From positions 6,661 to 31,889 of the forward strand of contig CAYSSA010000002.1 in NCBI GenBank assembly GCA_964433485.1: DNA of 25,229 nucleotides. Direction: 5' to 3'. Made by a program: the position numbers and the translations under genes. The stretch is from an uncultured Tepidisphaeraceae bacterium (GTDB taxonomy: Bacteria > Planctomycetota > Phycisphaerae > Tepidisphaerales > Tepidisphaeraceae). Below, one piece after another: positions 9,231-25,229 of the stretch (its first letter is position 1; each line of letters begins with the position of its first letter). The notes beneath the pieces were generated by a model. That model saw nothing but the letters and a program-made list of their open reading frames with translations, did not search any database and was not told the DNA's origin.

Positions 9231-9237
9231 ACAGACC

Positions 9238-9533
9238 TCCTCGAAAAAGAGGATTTGTTGCGGCAACCGGCTCCGAGCCACACCGGCCCAGCGTTTTTTT
9301 CCCGGCCGCCGCTCTCGCAAGAGAGCTGGCGGCGGCCGGGAAAGAACCCCCGGCGGCACCCCGTGGAGGCGCCGGGAGCGAGCGGGGAGTGACGGGCTGA
9401 AGCGGAGCGCCGCCTGCGTAATCGCCGAAGGCCAGTCATCGGCGGCGCGCAGCGCTCGGCACGACAAGAGCGAGCGACCAAGCCGGAGCGGGGTGTCGCC
9501 GGGCGGCTCACACCGCGGCGAAGCCGCCGTGAG
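9238..9533. promoter_or_regulatory. Structured non-coding leader upstream of parB
   Basis: Main hairpin 9298-9343: 13 bp + 6 bp, 4-nt bulge, GCAA loop. Further stems: 9349-9355/9370-9376, 9423-9428/9439-9444, 9453-9457/9468-9472, and 9507-9533 with a GCGAAGC core. Stem 9238-9242/9249-9253 covers the SD. Confidence 0.5.
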
Positions 9534-11019: not shown

Positions 11020-12310
11020 CGTCGCCCTCCTCTTCCGGTTCCAGGTCGGTGAGGTCTCCAGCTTCCTCCTTGATGGCATCAAGTTCGGCCAGGGTGAACA
11101 GATCCTCCTCATAGGAGATGTGGGTGAACGACTTGGCATCGTTGGGAACTCCAGGCCAAGAAAGCGTAGTGTTGAGGAGTTCCGTACTGATGGTCAAGTG
11201 CTGACCGCCGCCATAATCGAAGACGATACGCGGCGTGCCGTTGGAGAGGAAATCCCGCCAAAAATTCACCTCCGTCAGCACGTTGGCGTTGTACATGTGC
11301 GACTTGCGGCTGGTTACGCGGCGACCTGTCCCCTTGGGCGTGATCGCCTTGAAGCCATCGAAGGTGAATCGACGTTCCGGACGAATGGAAAGACACCACT
11401 GCCCATCCGCCACGCGATGGAAAGCCAGCCCCACGGCCATGTGCTCCCAATATTTCTTTACTTCCCCCGTGTGTTTGAAGAACGGGTTCCACGCCACCTT
11501 TCGGGAGACCTGTTTGCCGGTCAAAGACGTGTAGACTACCGACAGATCCTGGCCGGGCTTCGCAGGTTCAAAATAGTACCGGCTGTGCTCCTTGTCGAGT
11601 TGGAGTCGCATGCGGCCCGTGAGCTTATTGAGGGAGCGGTTGAGCAACTGCACATACCACCGGGCGCGGTCGGGGTCATCCCACCACCGTACGGCGGGGA
11701 TTGGCCGGGCTTGGCTAAGGTTGGTTACGTCTCGGAAGGGGCTCTGGCTAGAGGTAAGGTTGTCGAATGTGTACAGCTCTCGGTCGCGGACAATGTAGGG
11801 GAGCATGACTTTGGGATTGTCCGGGGCGTGGAGTTTTGCACGAACGTCTGGCTCCTCCACGGTGCATGAGACAGCGAAGATGGTCATTGGGACATGTGTG
11901 ACCGGCAGCAACGTGCTGTGGACGGTATCTGTAACTTGGGCCTCGGGTTGGCTGGTGTGGAGAAACAATTGCCGGGGCGTCAACTGCTGTTGCACCCAGC
12001 GTTCGTGGTCCAGCTTCATCTGAACAAGCTTCTCAACCGTGTAGGTCTGAGGCTGTCGATCCACGATCTCGTGGTGAGCATGGCAGAGCAGGAGCAGGTT
12101 ATCGTAGCCATCCAACTCCCCGCCGGGTGGCTGCTGAGTGCTGCGTGGCCCTCCGGGGCTCTGTGCCACGATGTGCGCGATTTCCCCCAGCGTCACCGAT
12201 GGATCATTTTCGTTGGCGGAAACTACCAGTCCGCGGCGGCAATCCGGAAACGAACATGTGGCGCCAGATTTGCCCCACAGAATCTGTTTGATCCGGTCGG
12301 TGATTGCCAT
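11006..12310 (-). CDS. HNH endonuclease-APAZ fusion, partner of the short pAgo
   Basis: N-terminal HNH: LWGKSGATCSFPDC...GEIAHIV...GPR...DNLLLLCHAHHEIVD. The rest is APAZ-like (STLLPV, YVQLLNRSL, RYYF, LSIRPERRFTFDG, YNANVLTEVNFWRDFL) with an acidic tail. Overlaps the pAgo start by 14 nt. Confidence 0.88.
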   Translation of the reverse strand: MAITDRIKQILWGKSGATCSFPDCRRGLVVSANENDPSVTLGEIAHIVAQSPGGPRSTQQPPGGELDGYDNLLLLCHAHHEIVDRQPQTYTVEKLVQMKLDHERWVQQQLTPRQLFLHTSQPEAQVTDTVHSTLLPVTHVPMTIFAVSCTVEEPDVRAKLHAPDNPKVMLPYIVRDRELYTFDNLTSSQSPFRDVTNLSQARPIPAVRWWDDPDRARWYVQLLNRSLNKLTGRMRLQLDKEHSRYYFEPAKPGQDLSVVYTSLTGKQVSRKVAWNPFFKHTGEVKKYWEHMAVGLAFHRVADGQWCLSIRPERRFTFDGFKAITPKGTGRRVTSRKSHMYNANVLTEVNFWRDFLSNGTPRIVFDYGGGQHLTISTELLNTTLSWPGVPNDAKSFTHISYEEDLFTLAELDAIKEEAGDLTDLEPEEEGDDEEA

Positions 12311-12320
12311 CGTGCCTCCC

Positions 12321-15300
12321 TCAAGTCAGCTTGAAGTCTGCGTCCACGTCCTTCAGCAGAGCGTTGATGTCACTTACGACGGAGGCGGGCGGGGGTGTCT
12401 TTCCGTCGCCGACCTCCAGGCGGACATGGAACTTCATGGCGACCTTCGCCTTTGCCTTGACTTCCAATAGCGCCGGGATGAGGTCCCCCAAGTCTTGAAC
12501 CTGCGACGGCTCAAAATCCGCCGCGGCGCTCCTGACATTGGGCGGCGCAGAACCTCCACCAGGTCCGCCGCCCGCGCCGCCCCCAGTTCCGCCGCCGGCG
12601 CCTGCGGTGGCGAGCTTGATCTTCACCGTCTGGGCGGCGGGTAGGTCGGATGGCCAAGGGGCAGAGTCGTCAGTCAAGGCAATGAACCTCGCCTGTAATG
12701 ATCCGCCGATCACGTCGCGCACGGTCTTCCACGGCAGCGTGTTGCCTGCCTGCTGAGATAGCGCGGTGGCGATGGCCAGGGCGGTTGTATTGCCGTCCTT
12801 CCACGCGGCGGACAAGTTCTCCGGCAGGATTGCGGCGGCCGAAATCGGTGGCGGCGGCGTGCGCAGTTTGGCGCTGGGGGACAGTACCCCGGCGGGGATC
12901 GGTTCAGCCAAAAGGCTGGCAGGCCCGGACAACAGCCACACCTTGCCGGCGGCGACGGCTTCACCGATGGCGGCGTTGACTACGTCGGCGGACGCCTTGG
13001 GAATTGGCATTGGTTCCTGGAAGCCGCCCTTATCCACCTGTACGACGGTCTTGCCGCCGAAATAATCGAGCGCCGCCTGGGCGGTAAGCTCGTCGCCGGC
13101 CCACAGCGATGGCAGCGCTTTGGGCGCAAGTAATTCCGGAGAAATGTCGGCCAGTTCCGCCGCTTCGGGCAGAACTAGCTCCAGCGCCGGGTCGGCCAGC
13201 GCCGCATCGTCCGGCTGCGAACGCCACCAGGTCCGGAATGTACGGTCCGGTCGTTGGAGCTTGAGAACGAACGTCCCCTGAACGCAGCCACCGACGAGCG
13301 TTTCGACAATTGCCTGCGCCTTGAGCATCTTGGGAAGGTGCGGCAGTTGTGCGAAGGCACCCGCCAGATCCTTCACGCGGCGGCTGGTTTCGCCGCCTTT
13401 CCACAGGTTGTACGGGCCATCTGGCAATAGGGCTTCGGCGGTAATGGCTGTGTCCTGGACGCGGGAACGGCTGTCATTCTTGATGGTGTCAAAGTGCGCA
13501 TCTTCGCCGACGGTGATCTTGAATGCCTGGACCTCGTCCTTGTCCGAAACCGTCACGACGATGCAATAGGCTTGGCGAATGGCCTCCGGCACGCGAGCCT
13601 TGGCCTTGTCGATGTTGATCTTGAGGGTCTGCAAGCGAGCGACATCCACGGAGCCCTTCTGCTTCTTCTCCTCCTCGTTCTTCGGCGTCAGGTCGTTCAT
13701 GACCCGCTCCCACGCAAGGAAATCGCGCATGCGGGCTTCGGCTGCACTCAGGCCGTCCTTTGAGGCAGCCAGGAGCAGGACCGCGTTGCGGAAGACGCGC
13801 GGCTTTTCCGGGCCGGTCGTCTCATCCAGGAATCGCTTGGCTTCCGGGCTGGGTTTGCCGGAATCCGACGATGCGCTTGGTGACATGATGGCGTAGTGGA
13901 ACAGTCCATCGTCCTCAATGTCCCTCGCCTTGGTCGGAAGCGTGTGGACGCGGACACCGGCCGCCGAGGCGCCGCTGGTCAGCGTCTTGGCCTTGCCAAT
14001 CTCATCGACCAACCTCGCCCGGACCAACTCGTCGGTGATGTTCGCCGCGGCGGCGGACTGCATCTGAATCAGGTTCGGGCGATTGCCCAACCGCCATTCA
14101 GCGGGCAGTTGCCCTTCCTTCTCGGGCATATTGGTGTCGTCAAGCCAGTGGCTATTACGCGCCCACCGGGCCAGGCCCTTCTCAAGCTCGATTTTGTCCG
14201 GGCGGCACGGACCGATGAGCATCAAGAGGTCCCGGGTCTTGGCGCTGCGTCCGGTGGGCTGGGAATGCAGGAAGGTGGCCATGGCGGCCTGCTCAATCTC
14301 GCGCAGCTTCAGACCGACGGCTTCCGACTGTACGCGGCGAGCGCTTTCCAATTCGTTCTCCACAATGCCCGTCCAGCGCGTAGCCTGGCCGTCGCCAACG
14401 ATGGTGTCGGCAATCGAGACGAGCTCGCGGGCAGCCTCGGAAAGCCCAGCCTGTTTCGGCGAGCTGAGGAACACAGACGCGCCCACCAGAGGGCTATCGT
14501 CCCATTTCTCGGCCTCGCGTAGCGCCAACGCGAACGTGCGCAGCACGCCGCGGGTCTTCTGGAATCGCTCGATCCCTGCTGCCCACTTGGAGTAGAACAC
14601 GTCCGTCAATTCGGGGTGGAAGGGGTAGCTCTTGAGGTATCGCTCCTCCGCCGTTGCACCCTGCTTGGCCGTCTGGTCGTCCAGAGCGGCGATGCCCTTG
14701 AGGGCCGCGATGACGTGCTGCGGCCAGGTACCGCGCAACTCCACCGATTTGGGATCGAACAGCCGGCGGCGGAGCACCTCGGCCACGTCATCCTTCTCAA
14801 CAGGCTGCACGGCCTCCTCTCGCTGGCGCTGGAAGATATCGTACAGACCCGACACGATCTTCTTGCCCAGCGGATCGGCCTGGTCTTTTGGTTCGCTGGA
14901 CAGCAGCGACGCCACGATGCAGCACCGCTGAACCTTGGCCGCCGCCTGAGTCAGGTACTGGAAGAATCCAACGAGCACGTCCAGGAAGCCGGGCTCCAAG
15001 TGACATCGCACCTTGGCGTACAACAGCACCTCGTCGAGAAGAATCAGAATCCCCAGCCCGGATTTAAGGGGGAGCGACAACAACTCGGTTAGCGTGTTTT
15101 CGGCCGGGGGCGTGTTGCGTTCCTCGGCTTTCCCCTCAGCGTTCAACAGCTTGAGACCTTGATCGCCCGCGAGCTGGTAGGCCAGCAGGCTCCACGGCTG
15201 CTTGAGCCGGCGCACGGCGCCATCGGGGCCGCGCACGTCGCAACCCGTCTCAACGTCCAGTTTGTCAAAGCAGAGCGCGGCGACGCGAGCTTTCGGGGGC

Positions 15301-15674
15301 GCCTGGCCAATGGTCTCGGTGAACTCGCGTACAGCGGGCAGGTCCGGCAGGTTGTCCGGGTCATGCACCAGGTGACGCATCGTGATGAGCGTGTGCGTCT
15401 TGCCGCCGCCGTACGTCAATTCGAGCTGCCGGACGGCTTTGTCGTTCTTGCCGGCCAGACGCAGAACCACGTCACGCACCAAATTGCGCAGGTTGTGCGT
15501 GGGGAACGTCAGGGCGAAGAATTCCTCCGGCTTCTCATACAGCGGCCGCATGCCGTTCTGCATCATGACTTCGTACAGATCGGCCGCGAACATGTGCAGC
15601 GGCAGGTCGCCGCTGCGCAGGTCGCTGCGGAGTTGGACAACCTCGTGCCACGGTTTCCAGGATAACTTAGCCAT
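12321..15674 (-). CDS. DUF499-family AAA+ ATPase
   Basis: KPWHEVVQLRSDL...FAADL...PEEFFALTFPT N-terminus; Walker A LTYGGGKTHT; Walker B LILLDEV; SYPFHPEL; FQKTRGVLR; Gly-rich linker near the C-terminus. Confidence 0.92.
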   Translation of the reverse strand: MAKLSWKPWHEVVQLRSDLRSGDLPLHMFAADLYEVMMQNGMRPLYEKPEEFFALTFPTHNLRNLVRDVVLRLAGKNDKAVRQLELTYGGGKTHTLITMRHLVHDPDNLPDLPAVREFTETIGQAPPKARVAALCFDKLDVETGCDVRGPDGAVRRLKQPWSLLAYQLAGDQGLKLLNAEGKAEERNTPPAENTLTELLSLPLKSGLGILILLDEVLLYAKVRCHLEPGFLDVLVGFFQYLTQAAAKVQRCCIVASLLSSEPKDQADPLGKKIVSGLYDIFQRQREEAVQPVEKDDVAEVLRRRLFDPKSVELRGTWPQHVIAALKGIAALDDQTAKQGATAEERYLKSYPFHPELTDVFYSKWAAGIERFQKTRGVLRTFALALREAEKWDDSPLVGASVFLSSPKQAGLSEAARELVSIADTIVGDGQATRWTGIVENELESARRVQSEAVGLKLREIEQAAMATFLHSQPTGRSAKTRDLLMLIGPCRPDKIELEKGLARWARNSHWLDDTNMPEKEGQLPAEWRLGNRPNLIQMQSAAAANITDELVRARLVDEIGKAKTLTSGASAAGVRVHTLPTKARDIEDDGLFHYAIMSPSASSDSGKPSPEAKRFLDETTGPEKPRVFRNAVLLLAASKDGLSAAEARMRDFLAWERVMNDLTPKNEEEKKQKGSVDVARLQTLKINIDKAKARVPEAIRQAYCIVVTVSDKDEVQAFKITVGEDAHFDTIKNDSRSRVQDTAITAEALLPDGPYNLWKGGETSRRVKDLAGAFAQLPHLPKMLKAQAIVETLVGGCVQGTFVLKLQRPDRTFRTWWRSQPDDAALADPALELVLPEAAELADISPELLAPKALPSLWAGDELTAQAALDYFGGKTVVQVDKGGFQEPMPIPKASADVVNAAIGEAVAAGKVWLLSGPASLLAEPIPAGVLSPSAKLRTPPPPISAAAILPENLSAAWKDGNTTALAIATALSQQAGNTLPWKTVRDVIGGSLQARFIALTDDSAPWPSDLPAAQTVKIKLATAGAGGGTGGGAGGGPGGGSAPPNVRSAAADFEPSQVQDLGDLIPALLEVKAKAKVAMKFHVRLEVGDGKTPPPASVVSDINALLKDVDADFKLT

Positions 15675-16917
15675 GTGATCGTCCTTTCGTCGCCGCCCGC
15701 GTTTCCAGGGCGTGCTGGGTCGCCAAGATTTCCTGGCGCAGAGTCTCGGGATCGGGAAGTTGGGTGAGGTATTTGGACGCGAACACCTGGGCGCGAATCC
15801 CGCCCATCGCGTACTTCACCACCGCGTCCTCTTTGTCGCTGCACAGAATGATGCCGATCGGGTCGTTCTCGCCGGCCATCGTCAAATGTTCTTTAACGTA
15901 GGTGAGGTACAGGCTCATCTGCCCGGCGTCGGCATGGTTGAACGACCCTCGCTTCAGGTCGAGCACCACCAGGCAGCGCAGCACGCGGTGGTACAGCAGC
16001 AGGTCGATGCGATACCACTGGCTGCCCACGCGAATCCGCTTCTGCCGCGCCACAAAGGTGAACCCGGCCCCCAGTTCCAGCAGAAACCATTCTAGGTGCC
16101 GAATGAGCGCATCCTCCAGTTCGCTCTCGCTGTACTCGTCCTTGAGATCGAGGAACTCCAGCAGGTACGGGTCGCGCACCTCATCCTGGGCCGACACTGC
16201 ATCCTCCGGCCGCGCAATCTGTCCGCGGGCCAGCATGGCGGCTTGCTGTTTGGAATGCGACGTGCGCTCAAAAAACTGTGTGCCAATCTGCCGGTCCAAC
16301 TGCCGCACCGACCAGCCTCCGCGGATCGCCTCGCTCTCATAAAAGACGCGGGCGTGCGGCTTCTCCACCGCCATCAATCGCACGTAATGCGACCAGGACA
16401 GTGGGAACGCGCCGGCAATCGCCATAAAGCCGGATTCGGCGGACACCGTCTGCAACATTCTCGACGGTGTCGAGACAATGATACCGCCTGATTCCGCCGA
16501 CGGTGTCGGCAGAATACCACCCCCGGATTCGCTCGACAGCGCCGAGCATTTTGCCCTCGCCTCGAATTGTCTCGACGGTGTCGAGACAATTTCCCATGCG
16601 AGATAGAACGCCCGCATCCGTGCCACGTTCGGCCTGGAGAACCCTCTCCCGTGCCTCGTTGTCAGGTCTGCCGAAAGGCGTTCCAGCAGCTTCTCCCCGT
16701 ACTCGGATGTTGCCTTCCCGCCTTGTTCATGCTCCACGATCCGCCGGCCGATTTCCCAATAGGTCGCGGTCAGGATCGCGTTGACCGACCGGGCAACACC
16801 TCGGCGAGCCTGCTCCAGCAAGCCGGATATGCCGGTGAGCAACTGGCCATAGTCGCCGGCCCGCGCGACGATGCTCGTCGTAACAGGCCGCTTCTTCTTG
16901 GACGTGCTTCGTCTCAT
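15667..16917 (-). CDS. yhcG: YhcG/DUF1016-family PD-(D/E)XK nuclease
   Basis: TATYWEIGRRIVEHEQGG, GRGFSRPN, LSWSHY, WSVRQLDRQI, RDPYLLEFL, LLELGAGFTFVARQKR, IDLLLYHR, VVLDLK, DAGQMSLY, PIGIILC. ATGA overlap with the methylase stop. Confidence 0.93.
   Translation of the reverse strand: MRRSTSKKKRPVTTSIVARAGDYGQLLTGISGLLEQARRGVARSVNAILTATYWEIGRRIVEHEQGGKATSEYGEKLLERLSADLTTRHGRGFSRPNVARMRAFYLAWEIVSTPSRQFEARAKCSALSSESGGGILPTPSAESGGIIVSTPSRMLQTVSAESGFMAIAGAFPLSWSHYVRLMAVEKPHARVFYESEAIRGGWSVRQLDRQIGTQFFERTSHSKQQAAMLARGQIARPEDAVSAQDEVRDPYLLEFLDLKDEYSESELEDALIRHLEWFLLELGAGFTFVARQKRIRVGSQWYRIDLLLYHRVLRCLVVLDLKRGSFNHADAGQMSLYLTYVKEHLTMAGENDPIGIILCSDKEDAVVKYAMGGIRAQVFASKYLTQLPDPETLRQEILATQHALETRAATKGRSHG
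16432..16591 (-). repeat. Five ~25-27 nt palindromic units with a GAC-NNN-GTC core, in frame within yhcG
   Basis: Units at about 16565-16591 (perfect 12-bp inverted repeat), 16527-16551, 16491-16515, 16456-16480 and 16432-16455. They encode IVSTPSRQF, KCSALSSES, ILPTPSAES, IVSTPSRM and MLQTVSAES. Confidence 0.85.
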
Positions 16918-19900
16918 GCTTCACCCGCTTCTGGTATGCCCGGCAGCATCGGCCCCTGTTCCTTGACAGCGCCCTTGGCGCCGATGTGATTGCTGATGCT
17001 CTCCAGCAGCGAACGCTCGCTGTTGGTGGACAGTTCGATGAGGGACTGCACGACGCGCTTGAACAACTCGTTCCGCCGCAGTGCATGCTGATCAAGGTAT
17101 CCATCGACCTTCTGCACATCGCCTTCTTTCCACAAGTGCATCACACGGTGGATGCGGTCGATTAGCGGCACGGCCTTGCCGGCTGGGGCTTCGTAGCCAA
17201 TGCTCTTGCCACGTCGCTGGTTCCACGCTTTTAGCTTCACCTTTCCGCCGCCACCGGCATCGCCTTCATCCGCGTCAGCATCGACGTCGTCGTCACCTTC
17301 GGTATCGGCGGCATCAACATCGGCATCGGCGGCATCTTCATCAGCGCCGGCGTGCGCGATGATCTCCCATGTACGATCGAGATCGCTGTCGGTGAGGCCA
17401 CAGGCGGTAGCGTAGAGGATGCACGCGCCCGCTGGCGCATCATCCATTCCGAAGTCATGGCGGTGCAGCAGGTAATAGGCTGTCACCTCATCCAAACGGT
17501 CGGCGGCGGCCAAGTCGGAGCCTTTCTCGCCGGTCAGCACCTGGCCGACGACATAGTCCACCACCATTCGCCGGACGTGGTTGAGAAATTCGCCGACGGT
17601 CATCGTGGCGTTGGGCTCGTTGGCCTTCCGCACGACGGGGTGTTTACTGTATGCCTCCAACGCCGGCCCGGTGGCCGCCCAGACGAAGTCCGGGCCACGT
17701 ATCCCCGCGTCCCAATACTCTCGCAGGCGATCCGCAATGTTGGCCTTCATCTCCTGCAGGACAGTATTGTCCCAGCCTGGGCGAGCCGTGGCCGGACGTT
17801 TTCTGCAAACGAGCCACACGGACGAGGCGAGAGCCGCGGAACCCAAGGAGCGAACGCGATTGCCCATTTCGGTCTGAATGGGCCACGACCCGTCCACTGT
17901 GAATCCAGCACGGATGATCGCCGAAACGAGCGTTTCCCAGGCATTCGGTTGCTTATTGGCGAAGACGATTACGAGGCGACCTTCGGGCTTTAGAGCTTGC
18001 GCACACGCAACGAATGCGCGGGCCATGCCATCTTCATATGCCTGCTTGCTCTTAGTGCCGTCCATCCCATGACGGCTGCAATCATCGATCAATTCACCGT
18101 CGTTGGCTTCGTGGTTCCACTTCGGTGAAAGAGGCGAGTTGAACGCAGTGTCGATAGCGGGTGACGCGCCTTGCAAAGACCTGCGTAACCACACATAGAA
18201 GAAGTCCATCAAGTCAGAGTATGGAATGGCATCGTAGTACGGCGGGTCGGTTAGGATGATGTCCAGCCCGTCGGACAAAGCTTGCGTGGCACTGCCGGAT
18301 TTCACGCATGGTGCGGGCTGTCGCTCGATAGCGGCGAGCGTCCGAGAAATGAATAGCGCAATCCATTCGATGGCGCCCAGATAACCACCGGACGTTTCGG
18401 AGGCAACTCCGACTTCAGTGAAGTCCCACACCATCGGCAAGGCGAACCTGCCGAAGGTATTCCGCATCTTCTCGCCACTATTATGCCAAGTACAAACGGC
18501 TGACCCGTAGTCTGCAAGGCGATCAGCGGCGATAGCCAGATACGCCTCAACGGCCTCGATCCATTCCGGCGGGTAACTATTGGCGGCAAGGACTTTGCCC
18601 GTTTGCCGTGTAGCCGACACCACGGTGCCCAAAGCTGTGAGTTGTCGGGCAGTAAATAGCTTTCGCCATCTGTCAAATCCGTATAGCGGCACGCGCATCC
18701 CGAGTGCGTCCTCGCTGGGCATTGGCTCCTCCGGGATGCCGAACGGCACATTGGCAAATGCCTGCTCAATCCGCTCCTGATCTGGCGTGGCGACCGCTAG
18801 CTCGAACTCGGTTGGTAGGCGGTATTCCTTCCCATCGGGGCCGTCCACGACGACGGCTGTCATGACACTGCCCAAACGGTTCGCCCGGCCTTCAGTGCGC
18901 ATATCCTCCATTGTCATGATGGCTGGGCAGCAAGGGCACTTGGCGCCGGCGCGGCTCATGGTGCCGGCGGCGATGCGTTTGTCGTGCTCGCGGCGCTGGG
19001 CCGCATTGCCGCCCTGGACAGGGACATTGGCCTGGATGCCGAACACGACCCGCTTGGTGCCCGACGGGTTGGGCACGACGGCTGCTGACGCCGATGATGC
19101 GAAATGGGCCGCCACCTTGGCGCGGACGGCTTCCGCCGTCTGCTCCATGTGTGGATCGATATCGCGCGCCTCCATCGTCAGCAGTACGCGCTTGCGGTCC
19201 TTCTTGCACAGCCACCGGGTCTTGAGCAGCGGTATTTGCGAGCGGCAATTTTTGCACGTGACCGTCCGCGCCCACAGATAGGCGACGGTCGGCTTGGCCA
19301 CCCATCGCGGGTTACGCCTGTCGGCAACGTAATCCTCTGTGAACTCGCCGTTCAACGAGTTGATGTCGGCGGTGCCATCGTCGGTCAGCGGAACCAGGCG
19401 CATGGGTTGGCGCTCATAGGCGACATGGTCTTTCTTTAGCGGTTCAAAATCGGCATAGGTGGGGTAAAGGCCGGCAAGTTCGCGGCGGGCATGGTCCAGC
19501 ACCCACTGGCCCCAGCCACGGATATGCCAAGCCAGATCGGCGTCGATGGCCATGTCGCCGCCGGCGATGTCGAGGCTCATCTGCTCCCCGTGTTCCAGCT
19601 TGTGGCCGAGTTGCTCCAGTCGCTTCTTCACTTGCGCTTTACTCAGGCCATGCGCTTTGAAGAAGGACTCCATGAACGTCTTATTGTTCAGGATGAACTT
19701 CGGCAGCGACCGCTTCTGCCCGGCCAACTTCTGCGGATACTCCAACGTGCATTTGAGGATGAACCACGCGACGGGGTTAATATCGACAGCCGTGGCCTCG
19801 CAACCCAGGCGCATCGCCTCAAACGGAATTGCGCCGCCGCCGGCGAACGGATCGAGCACCTTGGGGGCGCGGCCGCCGTAGGCTTTGCGAATTTCCTGAC

Positions 19901-20255
19901 GGAACCATTCGAGCGTGTCGGCGTTCTCGACTTCGCGACCCCAGTGAAGGATGCCGCCCTCGGTCTCCTCCTTGATCCGGTCTACGACCTGTCCGTTGGG
20001 CATCTTCTTCTTTTCGATCCGCTTGACGACCTTGCCGCCGATCTTCTCGCATAGTTCGCGGCGTTTCTCCGGATCGCCCGGGTCGGGAAGCAGCGTGGCG
20101 ATGAGCGCTGCCCGGCAAGCCGCCAGCGGCCGCCGCGCCGGCCAGATGTGAAGTGTCGAAATATGCCCGTGGCGGACTGCCTTCTCGTGGACAGAATCCA
20201 GCGAAGTCTGTTTCAGCGGGAATGCGTGTTCGATGAGTCGGGAAAAGTCAGTCAT
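16914..20255 (-). CDS. DUF1156-family DNA amino-methyltransferase (probably N6-adenine)
   Basis: DUF1156 signature GHISTLHIWPARRPLAACRA; motif I VLDPFAGGGAIP; motif IV ILTDPPYYD; CKNC and CPCC Zn-ribbon pairs; WPIQTE. Confidence 0.93.
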   Translation of the reverse strand: MTDFSRLIEHAFPLKQTSLDSVHEKAVRHGHISTLHIWPARRPLAACRAALIATLLPDPGDPEKRRELCEKIGGKVVKRIEKKKMPNGQVVDRIKEETEGGILHWGREVENADTLEWFRQEIRKAYGGRAPKVLDPFAGGGAIPFEAMRLGCEATAVDINPVAWFILKCTLEYPQKLAGQKRSLPKFILNNKTFMESFFKAHGLSKAQVKKRLEQLGHKLEHGEQMSLDIAGGDMAIDADLAWHIRGWGQWVLDHARRELAGLYPTYADFEPLKKDHVAYERQPMRLVPLTDDGTADINSLNGEFTEDYVADRRNPRWVAKPTVAYLWARTVTCKNCRSQIPLLKTRWLCKKDRKRVLLTMEARDIDPHMEQTAEAVRAKVAAHFASSASAAVVPNPSGTKRVVFGIQANVPVQGGNAAQRREHDKRIAAGTMSRAGAKCPCCPAIMTMEDMRTEGRANRLGSVMTAVVVDGPDGKEYRLPTEFELAVATPDQERIEQAFANVPFGIPEEPMPSEDALGMRVPLYGFDRWRKLFTARQLTALGTVVSATRQTGKVLAANSYPPEWIEAVEAYLAIAADRLADYGSAVCTWHNSGEKMRNTFGRFALPMVWDFTEVGVASETSGGYLGAIEWIALFISRTLAAIERQPAPCVKSGSATQALSDGLDIILTDPPYYDAIPYSDLMDFFYVWLRRSLQGASPAIDTAFNSPLSPKWNHEANDGELIDDCSRHGMDGTKSKQAYEDGMARAFVACAQALKPEGRLVIVFANKQPNAWETLVSAIIRAGFTVDGSWPIQTEMGNRVRSLGSAALASSVWLVCRKRPATARPGWDNTVLQEMKANIADRLREYWDAGIRGPDFVWAATGPALEAYSKHPVVRKANEPNATMTVGEFLNHVRRMVVDYVVGQVLTGEKGSDLAAADRLDEVTAYYLLHRHDFGMDDAPAGACILYATACGLTDSDLDRTWEIIAHAGADEDAADADVDAADTEGDDDVDADADEGDAGGGGKVKLKAWNQRRGKSIGYEAPAGKAVPLIDRIHRVMHLWKEGDVQKVDGYLDQHALRRNELFKRVVQSLIELSTNSERSLLESISNHIGAKGAVKEQGPMLPGIPEAGEA

Positions 20256-20260
20256 TTACG

Positions 20261-21190
20261 TCATCCTTGAGCGAGGGCAATCTCGCCAAAACTCCAAGAG
20301 CGACCGCCCTTCGTGCCGATTAGCAGGGGATTTTGCGGCGGAGCGATCGTCAACTTCACGTGCCCTTGTTTGCGTGTCGTGATCATCTTGTAATCCGCGT
20401 CGCCGACCTTGATGCCACGAACCGGATCCTGGCAGTATCGCGAGTCAACGTGAGGGTCTTTGGACACAACGGAGACCAAGACGACCGCGGGCTTGGCGAG
20501 GTTCAGGAGGTCAACGGAGTAGGCGGAGGCATGACCATGGTGAGGGGCCACCAAAATGTCGATTCCGGTCACGAACGGCCGCCAGGCGGCGCCGTATTGG
20601 CCAGTGTCCGCAATGATGGCTTCCCACGCCTCTTTTTCCAAATCGCCGCATAGGAGGATTGAGTTGCCATGCACGTCGATGCGAGTAACGACGCTGGCGT
20701 TGTTCACGCGACTGTTCGCTTGGCCGCCGACCTGCCTCGCCACCGTCACGGGCAAAGCCAATTCACGAATCACTACGCCGCCATAGTCTGGATAGCCGGT
20801 GGTCGTGAATGTACCCGCGAAGTGCGAAGCGAAGGCGTGTACTTCAGGCCACGAGTCATCGGTACTCGTTGAGCGGCAGTCCTCCAGGTACTCCTGGTCG
20901 AAATCGACGGTCTTGAGGAAATCCGGTCCGTACTCGAAGAGACGAGCATGGTCGGCCAGGTGATCACAATGCAGGTGACTGATGGTGCCCTTGAGAAACC
21001 TGAAGGGAGTGCGGATCATCAACTGCGCGTACGGCGAGGCCGATGCCGGCGTCTCGCGGCGTGCAATCCACTGGATCGGTGAAAACGTGGATGTGCAGCC
21101 TGCATCGAAGAGACACCAGCGGCCATTAGGCAAGCGCAGGCCAGCGCATTGCCCATGATCGACATTGAAGAGGAAGAATTCGGTATTCAC
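20261..21190 (-). CDS. ComEC/Rec2-type metallo-beta-lactamase-fold hydrolase (MBL-2, 309 aa)
   Basis: Start reassigned to GTG 21190 (GGAGG RBS; GTGA overlap with the upstream stop). Motifs: FNVDHGQC, FDAG, SHLHCDH, NNASVV, LLCGDLE, APHHG, VSV, TTRKQGHV. No signal peptide. Confidence 0.88.
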   Translation of the reverse strand: MNTEFFLFNVDHGQCAGLRLPNGRWCLFDAGCTSTFSPIQWIARRETPASASPYAQLMIRTPFRFLKGTISHLHCDHLADHARLFEYGPDFLKTVDFDQEYLEDCRSTSTDDSWPEVHAFASHFAGTFTTTGYPDYGGVVIRELALPVTVARQVGGQANSRVNNASVVTRIDVHGNSILLCGDLEKEAWEAIIADTGQYGAAWRPFVTGIDILVAPHHGHASAYSVDLLNLAKPAVVLVSVVSKDPHVDSRYCQDPVRGIKVGDADYKMITTRKQGHVKLTIAPPQNPLLIGTKGGRSWSFGEIALAQG

Positions 21191-21846
21191 GCCGGCCTCC
21201 CGTTGTTGGCAGCGGCCGGCAGCTGCAGGTACTGAACGAACACCTCGCGTGCATAGCGAACGGCAAACCGGTGCATGCGATAGATGGCGAGCGAAATGAG
21301 CACGGCGAGGATTACCTCCACCTTCCACGCCCGCCAATGCATGATTGCCGATGCAACCAGAAGCACAATCAAGCCGGCTGCAATGCCGCGGCAGAGTCCG
21401 TAGTTGCCATTGAAAATGTCAACGCGGTTGTTCTGCTTTGCCGCTTCCACGGCGGCGTAAACCTGCCGGGTGATTGCGTACCACTGCTTGGCAGTGGCGT
21501 TAGACAGAGCAAATGCTGGGTCGCTCACGCTCAAACGGACACGCCCTTCGAGCATCGTGCGCTGTGACGGAGCAATTATTTCGTGTTTGCCGCTGCGAAC
21601 CCAGTCCGTCGGCATCCCGCCCCAGAACCACCACCAGCCCGTCTCGACTGCATTGCCGATTGCTTGAAGAAGCTGCCCGGCAACATAGGCGAGAATCAAA
21701 CCGACGCCAAGGCTTCCAAGGGAAACACTGGAAATGGCGACCAGATCTTTGCTGTGGTCGGGGAAGAACAAGAGTACCAGGCCGACGATGAACACCATGC
21801 CTGGCGCGATGACGCCCGCCGTTCCGTAGAAATCGAACTCTTTCAT
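21187..21846 (-). CDS. Uncharacterised 4-TM membrane protein (219 aa; alternative TTG start at 21885)
   Basis: Hydrophobic segments: AGVIAPGMVFIVGLVLLFF, LGSLGVGLILAYVAGQLL, GIAAGLIVLLVASAIM, VEVILAVLISLAIY. Soluble middle loop; GAGG RBS before ATG 21846. Confidence 0.8.
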   Translation of the reverse strand: MKEFDFYGTAGVIAPGMVFIVGLVLLFFPDHSKDLVAISSVSLGSLGVGLILAYVAGQLLQAIGNAVETGWWWFWGGMPTDWVRSGKHEIIAPSQRTMLEGRVRLSVSDPAFALSNATAKQWYAITRQVYAAVEAAKQNNRVDIFNGNYGLCRGIAAGLIVLLVASAIMHWRAWKVEVILAVLISLAIYRMHRFAVRYAREVFVQYLQLPAAANNGRPA

Positions 21847-21881
21847 AACCGTACCTCGCTTCCATAGCCGCGTCATGTACC

Positions 21882-22838
21882 TCAACGGTCATACTGGGAA
21901 CGAATCGTCGGCTTTGCCGCGGCGTCATACGTGATCTCGATGTTTCCCTTCCAGCGGGTGGACCATACGTTCTCCGAGTGCTTCCGGTACTTGTCGGATG
22001 CGTCTGTTTCGGGTTTCTTGCCCACGGATACGATGGTGTATTGCGGCTTCATCAACTCGACGGCCCTATCGTGATAACCGGAATCACGGCCGTGGTGACT
22101 CGCCTTCAGGACTGTGCACTTCAATCCTGATCCGTACCGTTTCACGAGATCATCCCACACCACTTCTTCCGCATCACCGGCCAGGACGATTTTCACGCCG
22201 CCAAGGGTTACGCGCAGCACATAGCTCAGGTCGTTGACGTTGTCCGAATCTTGAATTGCCCGGAGGGTGGCGGGATTGGGGTGAAGGATGTCGATCCCGT
22301 CACCACCATCGACGCCGTCGGGGTCCTGATTCCAGAATGTGCCTTTGTCGCCACAGTATTTCCGAAGCACTTTGGGGGAGCCGTTGGGCGACCCGCGGAG
22401 CCGCTTGTACTCGTTCCACGATTTCCGGTCGGCATCGCTTGTGAGATCAGGAATGAATGTGTGGTCCGTGTCCCAGAAGTTCACAATGTCAATGTTGTGC
22501 GCCTTGAGTTGCTCAATGCCACTCAAATGGTCAAGGTGAGGATGCGTTTGAACATAGCGGAAGATGTCCTTGCCTGGGTAGTTCTTGCTGAGGAATTCAA
22601 TCGGGTTTGTCAGCTCGATGTCATAGCCGGCCTCCTTGACCATGCCGTAGCTGCGCTGGCCAAGAGCTTCGGCAAGCATCAATCGCATGTTGCCCTGTCG
22701 ATAATACTGACTGACTTCCGCGAGGGATTCGTGGTCTAACTCGGTGCAGTTGTTCACGTCAACGACCGTCAGTCGGCCGCTGGCGTGTTCGATAACGGTG
22801 CAGTCGCCATGCCCGACATTTAAGAAGGTAATCTTCAC
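21882..22838 (-). CDS. ComEC/Rec2-type metallo-beta-lactamase-fold hydrolase (MBL-1, 318 aa)
   Basis: Motifs: FLNVGHGDC, THPHLDH, NDLSYV, LAGDAE, KASHHG, VSVG, STRWKGNI. GTG start overlaps the helicase stop (GTGA), with a GAGGAGG RBS. Confidence 0.9.
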   Translation of the reverse strand: MKITFLNVGHGDCTVIEHASGRLTVVDVNNCTELDHESLAEVSQYYRQGNMRLMLAEALGQRSYGMVKEAGYDIELTNPIEFLSKNYPGKDIFRYVQTHPHLDHLSGIEQLKAHNIDIVNFWDTDHTFIPDLTSDADRKSWNEYKRLRGSPNGSPKVLRKYCGDKGTFWNQDPDGVDGGDGIDILHPNPATLRAIQDSDNVNDLSYVLRVTLGGVKIVLAGDAEEVVWDDLVKRYGSGLKCTVLKASHHGRDSGYHDRAVELMKPQYTIVSVGKKPETDASDKYRKHSENVWSTRWKGNIEITYDAAAKPTIRSQYDR

Positions 22839-25229
22839 AGCGACTCCTCCTCAGCCACTTGGGCGATTTGGGCCGCCGATATCGCAACGCCACCGACCGT
22901 TATGGTCGAACGGATGGTCCGCTCATTGGTCTGCTGCTTGGAGAATGGTCGCACCAGCAGCTTTTGAAATGGGTCTTGCACGCGGACCATCGTGGGCGTA
23001 GGCGTGGCACATTGATAAACGACGTAAAGCCAGTAGCCGTCCCGGAGATTGCAGGCCCTGGCCCATTCGTTGTCGGAGATTTGAATCTCCCCGGTCGTCG
23101 CGCGGCCTTTGACCTCGATGGCACGAGTTTCTCGTAGCGTGCCCTCACGGGGAGGCCGAAGCGAGAGCAGGTCGAATCCGGGATTGTCGGTTAGGCCGGC
23201 GGCGCGGGCTAGCTCGGGAGTGTGGACATCCTGCACAATAGCGCCGGCGGCTTCCTCGTATGCGCGAGCAAGATCCATCGCAACTCGTTCAACGTCGGCG
23301 TCGTGCTGCTCCAGATCGTCGGGATTGGTCGATGGCACGACAAGAGCGTGCGCCAGGAACGTCAGGTGTCCGGGGGCAATCAACTCCGGCTCTCGATGGA
23401 GTGTTGCCACTGCCATGGCGCGGCGTTGGGCGAGGGAACGTTGCTGGTCCTTGATCTCCTTCAGCGCCTTGAGTGCCGCGGAGTTTCCGGACCGGGACTT
23501 TTCCGATTGCTTCACCCGGGCTGCGGCAAGCTCAGCTTCCTGGAAGTCAAAGCCACGCTGGACGAACTGCTCGCGCTCTGGGAGTGTGGCCAGAAGCGCA
23601 GTTCGTCGTTCCATCGCCATCGTGCGGGCGACGCGCTCGACCATGAACGCCTGGGCCTGGGCCTTGAGCTTCTCGGCGGACATGGCAATGCGCTGCGCCG
23701 CCGGCGGGAGGCCATGGCCGCCTCTGAGCAGCAGCAGGTGTTCGACCGGGCAGAGAGCAAGTTCGACACCCTCGCGCTGCTTAACACCAACAAGCGTGCA
23801 ATCGAGAATCTCCTCGCTGGCCAGATCGGGAAGCTCGGGGTCGGCTTGGCGGACGACGCTGACCAGGGCAAGGTGAAAAAGGTACGGCTTGTCGGTGGTC
23901 GGATCGACGAACACGGCACCGCGAAGGGCCTGGTCGCCCAGACGGTCGCTCACGACGGCGCGGAAACGCTCGAAAACAGGCTCTCCCGGGTGGACCCAGA
24001 TGCGGGCGTCCTTCTCCGTGGGCAGCGGCCGCACAACGGAGAGGCATCCGCGCTGGCGGGCCGGATACATTTCGAGCGTGTGGAGGAGGAGGTCAATAGC
24101 GCCCTTCGAGGCCGGCCGCATGGAGAAGCAGGCATCCATGTCGCCATCAAGCTCGATATCCACGAGCGGTGCGGCGTTTTCGACGTAGTTCCTGACATAG
24201 CCCGGCAGCAGACGGCAATATGCCTCCTGCTGGAGGTCTTCACGCAGCCGTGGGAGTTGGCGCTTCACGTCGCCCCCGTCGCCGTAGAGCATGCGCTCCT
24301 GCGCAGCCAGTGCCTCCACCTGCTCCTTGGTGAGGCGGCCGTCCAATTCGCTGGCGACGGAACCGGCGCCGTCCACCAAAGCCTGCTCCATGTAGGTCTT
24401 GAGGGAGACGCCCTCAAAGAGACGGCCGATGGAGTCGAAGACCTTTTCGCTGCCCAGACTGTCGCGGATGGTATCGAGCTTGTTTAGAAGCGTCTGGATG
24501 ACCAAACCCTCGCGGGTCTTGGGCGCGACGAGGTTGACGATCTGCACAGGGTCGTGCTTCTGGCCATAACGGTGAATGCGTCCCATCCGCTGCTCAAGGC
24601 GGGCAGGATTCCAGGGGATGTCGAAGTTCACCATGATCCAGCAGAACTGGAGGTTGATGCCTTCGGCAGCGGCGTCGGTGCAGATCATGAAGCGGGCGCC
24701 GCCGTCTTCGTGGGGCAGGCGGAATCGTTCGACCTGTTCCTGGCGCTCGGTGTAGAACATGCCGCCATGAATCTGCGCGATCTGCCCTGTGTATCCCATG
24801 CCCCCCAGTCGCTGGATGAGATAGGTGAGCGTGTCACGGTGCTCGGTGAACACGATGAATTTCTCACCGGCGAAGCGCTCGTCGGTCAAAACTTCCCGCA
24901 ACTTGTCGAACTTTGATTCGGCGCCCTGGTCGAAAACCTTCTGCGCCAGGTTGCGAAGGCCAACCACCTGCTCGCGCTCGACGACAAGATCGGTCAGCGA
25001 AGCAGCGATGACGCCGGCGAGCAGGCGATCCTCGGACACTTCGCCTTCCTCAAGTCCATCTTCGGGCGATTCTTCGTCGGCTGTCTTCGTATCGAGAACA
25101 TCATCCTCCTCGGCCAGACGGCGCTGGAGAATGACAAGCTGTTCCTCGGTGAGTTTGCCTTCCTGGACTTGCCGGATCAGGTCGTCGAGTTTGCCGATCC
25201 GGCGCTCGAATGATCGCAGCAGCGCGAAC
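22835..25229 (-). CDS. SF2/SNF2-type helicase with C-terminal DUF3883 (NOV-C-like) nuclease domain, 5'-truncated
   Basis: The frame is open to the window end (FALLRSFERRIGKLDDL... precedes the ORF-track start at 25039). Helicase motifs IV-VI: FIVFTEHRDT, TDAAAEGINLQ, DIPWNPARLEQRMGRIHRYGQ. C-terminal PGFDLLS...IEVKG...SDNEW...YWLYVV. Confidence 0.92.
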   Translation of the reverse strand, partial: FALLRSFERRIGKLDDLIRQVQEGKLTEEQLVILQRRLAEEDDVLDTKTADEESPEDGLEEGEVSEDRLLAGVIAASLTDLVVEREQVVGLRNLAQKVFDQGAESKFDKLREVLTDERFAGEKFIVFTEHRDTLTYLIQRLGGMGYTGQIAQIHGGMFYTERQEQVERFRLPHEDGGARFMICTDAAAEGINLQFCWIMVNFDIPWNPARLEQRMGRIHRYGQKHDPVQIVNLVAPKTREGLVIQTLLNKLDTIRDSLGSEKVFDSIGRLFEGVSLKTYMEQALVDGAGSVASELDGRLTKEQVEALAAQERMLYGDGGDVKRQLPRLREDLQQEAYCRLLPGYVRNYVENAAPLVDIELDGDMDACFSMRPASKGAIDLLLHTLEMYPARQRGCLSVVRPLPTEKDARIWVHPGEPVFERFRAVVSDRLGDQALRGAVFVDPTTDKPYLFHLALVSVVRQADPELPDLASEEILDCTLVGVKQREGVELALCPVEHLLLLRGGHGLPPAAQRIAMSAEKLKAQAQAFMVERVARTMAMERRTALLATLPEREQFVQRGFDFQEAELAAARVKQSEKSRSGNSAALKALKEIKDQQRSLAQRRAMAVATLHREPELIAPGHLTFLAHALVVPSTNPDDLEQHDADVERVAMDLARAYEEAAGAIVQDVHTPELARAAGLTDNPGFDLLSLRPPREGTLRETRAIEVKGRATTGEIQISDNEWARACNLRDGYWLYVVYQCATPTPTMVRVQDPFQKLLVRPFSKQQTNERTIRSTITVGGVAISAAQIAQVAEEESL

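What the first reader, a model, noticed from the sequence alone, without database searches (positions are those of the whole stretch)
20261..22838. MBL hydrolase - 4TM protein - MBL hydrolase: candidate undescribed three-gene module
Seen in sequence: two divergent ComEC-type MBL proteins, both with intact HxHxDH, GD and HHG metal ligands and no signal peptide, flank a 4-TM protein. The trio is coupled at the outer helicase junction and splits the helicase from the methylase. Hand-counted spot GC is lower: 28/60 at 22441-22500 versus 41/60 at 23641-23700 in the helicase. I recognise no named defence system with this layout. Inference 1: a split-ComEC-like, membrane-anchored nuclease complex that degrades DNA at its point of entry. 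Inference 2: nucleotide-processing phosphodiesterases that make or remove a signal gating a membrane effector (the anti-Pycsar phosphodiesterase Apyc1 is an MBL-fold enzyme).
Basis: partly seen in the sequence, partly recalled or inferred. Interest (0 to 1): 0.8.

Follow-up and report, generated by a model that had tools for sequence, protein, structure and literature searches.

The report
Membrane protein with two ComEC-like nucleases
Three tightly packed genes inside a phage-defence operon encode a Csx27-type membrane protein flanked by two ComEC-like metal-dependent nucleases; this is a two-enzyme version of a widespread gene pair that was already predicted in the literature, and I found no experimental test of it.

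Summary
Window 20261-22838 (minus strand) encodes MBL1 (318 aa), a 4-TM protein (219 aa, true start at 21846) and MBL2 (309 aa). The genes are translationally coupled and lie between hmaA and hmaB of an Hma (helicase-methylase-ATPase) defence system.

- **The enzymes.** Both are stand-alone ComEC-type MBL hydrolases with intact metal ligands. They share only 25% identity.
- **The membrane protein.** It belongs to the Csx27 family.
- **How conserved the pairing is.** In 55 homologous loci from 12 phyla, the membrane gene has an adjacent co-oriented ComEC-like MBL gene in 44. That gene lies upstream in 16, downstream in 27 and on both sides in 1.
- **Contexts.** The pair occurs inside Hma systems (24 loci) and beside type I R-M genes. 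It also occurs beside E2-E1-JAB operons and alone on mobile DNA.
- **Two-MBL versions.** These recur in three gene orders but are optional. The relative with the closest membrane protein among the loci I inspected (L071, 77% identity) lacks the second MBL.

So the module is not undescribed. Makarova et al. 2019 predicted this Csx27/ComEC-like/ubiquitin-like/DNA-modification link, and PADLOC lists the MBL as PDC-M48B. This scan also found the pair before on other DNA.

The likely function is a mobile, membrane-anchored nuclease cassette acting on incoming DNA. I found no experimental test of it. The structure-based binding test gave no verdict.

The parts
21882..22838 (-). MBL1: stand-alone ComEC-type metallo-beta-lactamase-fold hydrolase (318 aa), of the clade usually found upstream of the TM gene
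   Evidence: ORF. Matches PADLOC PDC-M48B at 3.6e-25 and Pfam Lactamase_B at 8.8e-5. More than 1000 homologues, many named 'competence protein ComEC' by JGI. The family profile matches ComEC MBL domains best in the PDB (9ic4, 6e-16). HPHLDH, GD and HHG are intact. In the tree it falls in the clade of upstream partners.
21187..21846 (-). Csx27-family 4-TM membrane protein (219 aa) with a conserved helical domain of about 85 aa between TM2 and TM3
   Evidence: Start fixed by homologues. Matches the PADLOC Csx27 profile over its full length at E 1.4e-5; 31 of 40 relatives match, best 6e-9. AlphaFold model pLDDT 92.4. Four hydrophobic segments; the large loop and the tail are rich in K and R, which predicts that they face the cytoplasm. 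No solved structure shares the fold.
20261..21190 (-). MBL2: second, divergent stand-alone ComEC-type MBL hydrolase (309 aa), of a clade found downstream of the TM gene
   Evidence: GTG start overlaps the TM stop as GTGA. Matches PDC-M48B at 2.5e-16. The family profile matches ComEC/Rec2 best (9vcb, 1.4e-15). AlphaFold model pLDDT 94.8; the best fold match is the ComEC beta-lactamase-like domain 9ic4 (E 8.6e-15, TM 0.61/0.69). HLHCDH, GD and HHG are intact.
22835..25229 (-). hmaA: SNF2-type helicase with a C-terminal NOV_C domain (3' part; the gene runs off the window). Host system, not part of the cassette.
   Evidence: PADLOC HmaA 2e-72. Pfam Helicase_C and NOV_C. GTGA overlap with MBL1.
16914..20255 (-). 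hmaB: DUF1156 N6-adenine DNA methyltransferase of the host Hma system
   Evidence: PADLOC HmaB 1.8e-119. Pfam DUF1156 4e-17. Starts 5 nt after the MBL2 stop.
15667..16917 (-). YhcG/DUF1016 PD-(D/E)xK nuclease, a second embedded gene (PADLOC candidate PDC-S02)
   Evidence: Pfam YhcG_C 4.8e-56. PADLOC PDC-S02 5e-129. L062 has the same gene in the same position, between the methylase and the DUF499 ATPase gene. L069 also has it directly after the methylase gene, but that locus ends inside it.
12321..15674 (-). hmaC: DUF499 ATPase of the host Hma system
   Evidence: PADLOC HmaC 2e-70. Pfam DUF499.

Best explanation
The three genes are a two-enzyme version of a widespread mobile cassette. The cassette consists of a Csx27-family four-helix inner-membrane protein plus one stand-alone ComEC-type MBL phosphodiesterase/nuclease (here two). 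In this window it is embedded, and translationally coupled, between hmaA and hmaB of an Hma (DUF499-centred, BREX-related) defence system.

Most likely it is a self-contained module against phages or plasmids, working as follows:
- The membrane protein has its N-terminus, large conserved loop and C-terminal tail on the cytoplasmic side.
- It holds the cytoplasmic, catalytically competent nuclease(s) at the inner face of the membrane.
- There they cut DNA that is entering the cell. Foreign DNA would thus be recognised by where it is, not by a modification.

Shown here by computation: the gene structure and coupling, the ComEC-type fold and intact active sites, Csx27-family membership, the conserved adjacency, and the repeated moves between defence contexts.

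Inferred: physical binding of the MBLs to the membrane protein, DNA as the substrate, and the defence phenotype.
For: - Identity of the parts.
- Coupling of the genes.
- Conserved adjacency: 44 of 55 loci from 12 phyla have a co-oriented ComEC-like MBL next to the TM gene. Four more have an MBL-like gene in an adjoining E2-E1-JAB operon, four are cut by contig ends, and only three full-flank loci lack one.
- Reciprocal test: 3 of 3 sampled MBL1 homologues are followed by a TM family member.
- Defence contexts: inside Hma in 24 of 55 loci; after type I R-M hsdS or hsdR genes; next to integrases, transposases and HipA or VapBC toxin genes.
- Mobility: the Hma/non-Hma label needs at least 7 changes on the TM tree. 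The trio is 57.3% GC against 61-64% for the hma genes.
- Autonomy: 13 loci with at least 4 kb on both sides have the TM gene but no Hma.
- Literature: embedded genes in Hma are often independent defences (Payne et al. 2024, 10.1101/2024.01.29.577857). The Csx27-family hypothesis of Makarova et al. 2019 is summarised in PMC8209922 and PMC7642515.
Against: - I found no experimental data for this family outside type VI-B CRISPR. There, Csx27 repressed Cas13b interference when expressed in E. coli (PMC8209922).
- The complex prediction for the trio scored 0.00, which is no verdict and so no support for binding.
- The substrate is inferred only from homology to the ComEC MBL domain. The next-best solved relative, Pce/CbpE, is a phosphorylcholine esterase.
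- From my own knowledge, the MBL domain of ComEC is thought to face outward, whereas these proteins have no export signal. The analogy to ComEC is therefore not exact.
- In all Hma loci the cassette sits at the same junction, directly after hmaA. This could also mean functional dependence on Hma.
Confidence: 0.45

Rival explanations
1. Abortive-infection membrane effector. The Csx27-like protein would be the killing or arresting part, forming a pore or depolarising channel as Csx28 does for Cas13b. The MBL enzyme(s) would sense infection or control the pore.
For: - Csx28, the other type VI-B membrane accessory, is an octameric pore that depolarises the membrane (PMC12669027).
- The TM protein is far more conserved than its partners: 46% mean column identity with 24 invariant columns. 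The MBL partners fall into at least 4 deep clades and are swapped. This is the pattern of a conserved effector with variable sensors.
- Weak fold resemblance to small 2TM effector proteins in AFDB.
Against: - The catalytic ligands of the MBLs are invariant, so hydrolysis is essential rather than mere sensing.
- The TM fold shows no significant match to any solved pore.
- Csx27 and Csx28 are unrelated proteins.
Confidence: 0.2
2. Integral accessory subunits of Hma. The MBLs and the membrane protein would work only together with HmaABC, for example as its restriction nuclease or as a membrane tether for the complex.
For: - The cassette sits between hmaA and hmaB in 24 of 55 loci, and in the loci where the hmaA end could be seen it follows hmaA directly or after other embedded genes.
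- It is translationally coupled to hmaA.
- Secondary sources say Makarova et al. 2019 tied the Csx27 family to a DNA-modification system (PMC8209922). From my own memory of the abstract, this concerned a distinct subfamily.
Against: - The pair is found without Hma in at least 13 full-flank loci, and next to type I R-M, E2-E1-JAB operons or mobile-element genes.
- Hma context is scattered on the TM tree (at least 7 changes).
- HmaA here already carries its own C-terminal NOV_C domain. A nuclease domain fused to HmaA was reported to confer defence in Halomonas (PMC11232893, title and abstract only).
- 37% of Hma systems have no embedded genes.
Confidence: 0.15
3. Signal-processing phosphodiesterases. 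The MBLs would make or destroy a nucleotide second messenger that gates the membrane protein.
For: - The MBL fold includes cyclic-nucleotide phosphodiesterases.
- There are weak profile hits to 3',5'-cyclic-nucleotide phosphodiesterase 1 (4ojv, E 0.006) and to 7t28_A, a 'putative metal-dependent hydrolase' (E 0.007).
Against: - ComEC nuclease domains match 9-13 orders of magnitude better.
- No cyclase, CD-NTase or nucleotide-sensing protein family turned up among the recurrent neighbour families of the 55 loci or in the neighbours I scanned.
- No Pfam family, and so no known ligand-binding domain, was detected in the TM protein.
Confidence: 0.07
4. A DNA-uptake device (a minimal, split competence channel) rather than a defence.
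For: The enzymes' nearest relatives are ComEC/Rec2 domains. Makarova et al. 2019 proposed ssDNA channels for uptake and possibly degradation.
Against: - The contexts are defence systems and mobile elements, not competence genes.
- The proteins lack the ComEC channel domain and OB domain.
- The cassette moves horizontally and is patchy.
Confidence: 0.06

Closest known systems
Csx27-family membrane proteins and their non-CRISPR neighbourhoods (Makarova, Gao, Zhang, Koonin 2019, FEMS Microbiol Lett 366:fnz088). The paper is not held in the library; it is cited and summarised in PMC7642515 and PMC8209922.
   Same: - A protein of about 200-220 aa with four TM helices that matches the Csx27 profile.
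- Operons with ComEC-like MBL genes, with E2-E1-JAB multidomain proteins, and inside a helicase/DUF1156-methylase/DUF499 DNA-modification system. These are the associations the secondary sources attribute to that paper.
   Different: - There is no Cas13b or CRISPR array here.
- This locus has two divergent MBL genes flanking the TM gene. None of the secondary sources I could read mentions a two-MBL form, but I could not read the original paper.
PADLOC phage-defence candidate PDC-M48 (Payne, Hughes, Fineran, Jackson 2024, bioRxiv 10.1101/2024.01.29.577857; cassette FAM_01875>>FAM_00178; listed as a candidate only; I found no test of it)
   Same: Both MBLs match PDC-M48B models (3.6e-25 and 2.5e-16). 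The candidate was found by the same 'embedded in a defence system' logic.
   Different: - None of the 41 TM proteins tested matched a model named PDC-M48A, so the A component could not be identified here.
- PDC-M48 is a two-gene candidate. This locus has three genes.
ComEC/Rec2 C-terminal MBL nuclease domain
   Same: It is the best sequence-profile and fold match for both enzymes, with the same H-x-[HD]-x-D-H ... GD ... HHG ligand pattern.
   Different: - ComEC is one polypeptide of about 800 aa with an OB domain and a many-helix competence channel. Here the MBL is a free protein of 309-318 aa.
- The membrane partner is an unrelated 4-TM protein. Sequence identity to ComEC domains is low (18% in the fold match).
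Hma system (HmaA helicase, HmaB methylase, HmaC ATPase; Payne et al. 2021, PMC8565338). PMC12839542 renames these DUF499-centred BREX-related systems.
   Same: The genes flanking the trio are HmaA, HmaB and HmaC. 62.7% of Hma systems carry embedded genes.
   Different: The trio is cargo, not core. It also occurs without Hma.
Csx28 of type VI-B2 CRISPR-Cas (membrane pore)
   Same: A small membrane accessory protein of a defence system. It is a possible model for a membrane-effector role.
   Different: I found no detectable homology. The PADLOC scans of the TM proteins listed no Csx28 model, and no solved structure shares the TM fold.

Membership tests
Csx27 family of 4-TM proteins | Significant full-length similarity to the Csx27 profile | tested here: met
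   PADLOC PDLC01605 Csx27: the window protein scores E 1.4e-5 over residues 1-202 against profile positions 1-190 of 206. 31 of 40 relatives match, best 6.2e-9.
Csx27 family of 4-TM proteins | About 200 aa with four transmembrane helices | tested here: met
   219 aa. Four hydrophobic segments. The AlphaFold model has pLDDT 92.4 and long helices at 6-27, 48-74, 140-169 and 174-207.
Csx27 family of 4-TM proteins | Operon partners: ComEC-like MBL, E1/E2/JAB proteins or DNA-modification genes | tested here: met
   MBL adjacent in 44 of 55 loci. An E2-E1-JAB protein in 7 loci. Hma in 24 loci.
Csx27 proper (type VI-B1 CRISPR accessory) | Encoded next to cas13b and a CRISPR array | tested here: not met
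   No cas13b-like ORF lies in the operon. The neighbours are hmaA, hmaB, yhcG, hmaC and a short pAgo.
ComEC/Rec2 | MBL domain with a full set of metal ligands, closest to ComEC domains | tested here: met
ComEC/Rec2 | Fusion to the competence channel and OB-fold domains in one polypeptide of about 800 aa | tested here: not met
   MBL1 is 318 aa and MBL2 is 309 aa, and each is only an MBL domain. The matches to ComEC chains cover only their C-terminal residues, about 540-800.
PADLOC PDC-M48 | B component (MBL model) | tested here: met
   PDLC04673/04675: 3.6e-25 for MBL1 and 2.5e-16 for MBL2.
PADLOC PDC-M48 | A component (FAM_01875) adjacent to B | tested here: inconclusive
   No protein in the window or in the scanned loci matched a model named PDC-M48A. 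The family description is not in the stored supplements.
Hma system | HmaA helicase, HmaB DUF1156 methylase and HmaC DUF499 ATPase in one locus | tested here: met
   2e-72, 1.8e-119 and 2e-70. This applies to the flanks. The trio itself is not a core Hma gene.
MBL-fold cyclic-nucleotide phosphodiesterases (Apyc1-like) | Closest similarity to such enzymes, with a cyclase or nucleotide-gated effector nearby | tested here: not met
   Only marginal hits (E 0.006-0.007) against 1e-15 for ComEC. No cyclase family turned up among the recurrent neighbour families or in the scanned neighbours.

The most novel reading that the evidence does not exclude
The two catalytically intact, deeply divergent MBL paralogues assemble together on an oligomer of the Csx27-like protein. 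This would form a 'split ComEC' that threads or captures DNA at the membrane and destroys it. Foreign DNA would be recognised by its location, independently of the Hma methylation mark. Swapping of the second MBL between lineages would reflect an arms race with phage inhibitors or DNA modifications.
Probability: 0.12. Interest if true: 0.7.

Novelty: new variant of a known kind. Interest (0 to 1): 0.33.

Why it matters
The Csx27-like/ComEC-like pair is among the more widespread defence-associated cassettes for which I found no experimental test:
- It occurs in 12 phyla in this sample.
- A 5.8-billion-sequence database holds more than 1000 homologues of MBL1.
- It repeatedly nests inside Hma and next to type I R-M genes, and it occurs beside ubiquitin-like E2-E1-JAB operons.

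Working out its function would also bear on what Csx27 does in type VI-B CRISPR systems. It would test a published idea that bacteria can destroy DNA at the membrane as it enters.

What this window adds is that versions with two active MBL enzymes recur in three different gene orders, and that the second enzyme is optional and exchangeable. Any experiment should therefore compare the pair with the trio. As a discovery in itself the locus is not new.

Tried and rejected
- **Complex prediction** of MBL1 + MBL2 + TM with my own alignments: score 0.00, no verdict. This is neither support nor evidence against binding.
- **Fold searches with the TM model.** Foldseek against the PDB gave nothing below E 0.6. 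VIA-align wide gave only generic helical hairpins at Z below 8. The ESM Atlas gave TM-scores below 0.4. AFDB clusters gave only its own family and uncharacterised membrane proteins.
- **A sequence profile of the TM family** against the PDB gave only noise, E 0.07 or worse.
- **The identity of PDC-M48A** could not be found. The supplements are cut, and there were no hits for lactamase, ComEC or Csx27.
- **The primary paper** (Makarova et al. 2019, PMC6700684) is not held. I rely on two secondary summaries and on my own memory of its abstract.
- **Phage genomes:** no TM homologue. **Plasmids:** one, in Polymorphobacter megasporae.
- **An apparent frameshift in hmaA** just outside the window turned out to be a run of N in the assembly, not a broken gene.
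- **An earlier idea that the ancestor of this clade was TM-then-MBL** (from the TM tree) was dropped. Closer relatives showed that MBL1-TM is the constant part and the downstream MBL is variable.
- **E2-E1-JAB and its MBL-like partner** are absent from the window's own genome, which is only 69% complete.
Full report
**Anatomy.**
On the minus strand the window carries one tight operon:
- hmaA: SNF2 helicase with NOV_C, 22835 to beyond 25229.
- MBL1: 21882-22838.
- A 4-TM gene: 21187-21846.
- MBL2: 20261-21190.
- hmaB: DUF1156 adenine methylase, 16914-20255.
- A YhcG/DUF1016 nuclease: 15667-16917.
- hmaC: DUF499 ATPase, 12321-15674.
- An HNH-APAZ protein plus a short pAgo: 11006-12310 and 9550-11139.

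- helicase/MBL1: GTGA overlap preceded by GAGGAG.
- MBL1/TM: 35-nt gap with GAGG before the ATG at 21846.
- TM/MBL2: GTGA overlap.
- MBL2/methylase: 5-nt gap.

Homologues fix two starts. Nearly all listed relatives of the TM protein are 208-250 aa and align from the Met at 21846. MBL2 aligns from the GTG at 21190.

The trio is 57.3% GC against 60.8-63.6% for the hma genes and 61.6% for the genome.

**The enzymes.**
MBL1 and MBL2 are only 25% identical, but both are ComEC-type.
- MBL1 has more than 1000 homologues, many labelled 'competence protein ComEC' by JGI.
- Its family profile matches ComEC MBL domains best among all solved structures (9ic4 at 6e-16, then 30bt, 9vc6 and 9vc9).
- The MBL2 profile does the same (9vcb at 1.4e-15).
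- The confident MBL2 model (pLDDT 94.8) has the ComEC beta-lactamase-like domain as its top fold match (E 8.6e-15). The next match is the phosphorylcholine esterase Pce.
- The ligands are present: HPHLDH/GD/HHG in MBL1 and HLHCDH/GD/HHG in MBL2. They are conserved in both families.
- Neither protein has a signal peptide.
- They are free MBL domains of 309-318 aa, not ComEC itself.

**The membrane protein.**
- It has no Pfam match.
- It matches the PADLOC Csx27 profile over its full length, and so do 31 of 40 relatives (best 6e-9).
- The model is confident (pLDDT 92.4).
- It has four hydrophobic helices and a conserved helical domain of about 85 residues between TM2 and TM3.
- The distribution of K and R puts that domain, the N-terminus and the C-terminal tail in the cytoplasm.
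- The family is strongly conserved, with 24 invariant columns across phyla.
- No solved structure shares the fold.

**Conservation of the neighbourhood.**
A scan of one genome per species gave 55 true loci from 12 phyla. I clustered all open frames across the loci and then ran profile searches. The results:
- A co-oriented ComEC-like MBL gene lies next to the TM gene in 44 loci: 27 downstream, 16 upstream and 1 on both sides.
- Of the other eleven, four carry an MBL-like gene (c28) in an adjoining operon with a Prok-E2_A/ThiF-E1/JAB protein.
- Four more are cut by a contig end.
- Three lack an MBL despite full flanks.

The reverse also holds. Three of three sampled MBL1 homologues, including one in the cultured Pelotomaculum thermopropionicum SI, are followed by a TM family member.

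The contexts are:
- between hmaA and hmaB in 24 loci;
- after type I R-M specificity or restriction genes;
- beside E2-E1-JAB operons in 7 loci;
- alone among integrases, transposases and toxin-antitoxin genes.

On the TM tree the Hma/non-Hma label needs at least seven changes. The pair has therefore moved in and out of Hma repeatedly.

**Pair or trio?**
The MBL partners fall into at least four deep clades. MBL1 belongs to a clade of upstream partners and MBL2 to a clade of downstream partners.

Among the window's nearer relatives:

| Locus | TM identity | Arrangement |
|---|---|---|
| L071 | 77% | hmaA-MBL1-TM-hmaB, no second MBL |
| L001 and L069 | 68% | MBL1-TM-MBL, but the downstream enzyme is from another clade (31% identical to MBL1) |
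| L070 | 59% | MBL1-TM-MBL2-type (53% identical to MBL2) plus an extra 354-aa gene |

Two other two-MBL orders exist. One is TM-MBL-MBL inside an Hma system (L062/L063). The other is MBL-MBL-TM after hsdMSR (L068).

So the constant unit is TM plus one MBL. A second MBL is a recurrent, optional and exchangeable addition. In the window, L062, L069 and L070 its ligand motifs are intact. In L068 the extra copy has an N-x-D-x-D-H variant.

**What is already known.**
- The flanks are a catalogued Hma system. Payne et al. report that 62.7% of Hma systems carry embedded genes, many of them independent defences.
- Their PDC-M48 candidate (cassette FAM_01875>>FAM_00178) supplies the models that both MBLs match.
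- I could not identify its A component. No TM protein matched a model of that name.
- Makarova, Gao, Zhang and Koonin (2019) tied the Csx27 family to natural-transformation components, ubiquitin-like systems and a DNA-modification system.
- I could not read that paper. It is summarised in PMC7642515 and PMC8209922, and my recollection of its abstract agrees with them.
- I found no experimental test of the non-CRISPR family in the library.
- Earlier follow-ups of this scan reached the same identification on other genomes. I saw those notes only after my own identification.

**Mechanism.**
My best reading (0.45) is a self-contained membrane-anchored nuclease cassette. The membrane protein's cytoplasmic face would hold the active MBL enzyme(s) at the membrane to cut entering DNA. 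The parts, coupling, conservation and mobility are shown by computation. Binding, substrate and phenotype are inferred. The one binding test available gave no verdict.

The rivals are:
- an abortive-infection pore with the MBLs as sensors (0.2);
- Hma-dependent accessory subunits (0.15);
- signal-processing phosphodiesterases (0.07). This has weak homology support, and no cyclase family turned up among the recurrent neighbour families or in the scanned neighbours;
- a DNA-uptake device (0.06).

**Verdict.**
- The claim of an undescribed module is not supported.
- The two-MBL layout is a modest new variant of a known, predicted family for which I found no experimental test.

Noticed in passing
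L058:1222-1310 approx. (own genome C2, about 330-420 bases beyond the window's right end): hmaA looks frameshifted in a tblastn comparison, but the break is a run of about 89 N in the assembly (a scaffold gap or masked stretch). The gene need not be broken.
   Followed up: yes
window 15667-16917 (-); also L062:16132-17397 and L069:13936-14666: A YhcG/DUF1016 PD-(D/E)xK nuclease (PADLOC candidate PDC-S02) is embedded between hmaB and hmaC here and in L062, an Hma locus that also carries the TM/MBL cassette. In L069 it follows hmaB directly, but the locus ends inside it. In L034 and L035 it sits between hmaA and the TM gene instead.
   Followed up: partly
L026:4477-7882; also L003, L010, L011, L047, L049, L055: An MBL-like protein of about 400 aa (matching the PADLOC RTasMBL and LmuA models) is paired with a 760-aa Prok-E2_A + ThiF-E1 + JAB protein. 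The pair lies next to the Csx27-like gene in seven loci. In L047 and L049 no ComEC-like MBL is present, so this MBL-like protein may take its place.
   Followed up: partly
L060:8051-8983 and L068:7170-7988: One MBL subclade (the PADLOC PDLC04674 type) has N-x-D-x-D-H in place of H-x-H-x-D-H, so the first metal ligand is changed. Whether these copies are active is unknown.
   Followed up: no
L044:4432-6753: In a Cyanobacteriota MAG the TM homologue (31% identity) lies at the end of a 774-aa open frame with no Pfam or PADLOC match. This may be an N-terminal fusion or an artefact of a long open frame in GC-rich DNA.
   Followed up: no
L069:8700-9533 and L070:6713-7777: Further cargo lies between the cassette and hmaB in close relatives: an Abi_C-domain protein (L069) and an unannotated 354-aa protein (L070). 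The same junction seems to collect several embedded genes.
   Followed up: no
L067:7715-7981: An 88-aa NOV_C fragment, which looks like the 3' end of an hmaA, sits directly upstream of an MBL-TM pair in a locus with no Hma system. Either the cassette moved with a piece of hmaA or an Hma system decayed around it.
   Followed up: no
window 9550-12310 (-): An HNH-APAZ protein (434 aa) and a short pAgo (529 aa; PADLOC pAgo_I 2e-147) directly follow hmaC in the same orientation. This makes a defence island with at least four systems.
   Followed up: no
window 672-5042 (+) and 7353-9467 (-): A 1456-aa Ser/Thr kinase with a long WD40 array, followed by a sigma-70-like gene, and a 704-aa ParB-like protein lie on the other side of the island.
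   Followed up: no
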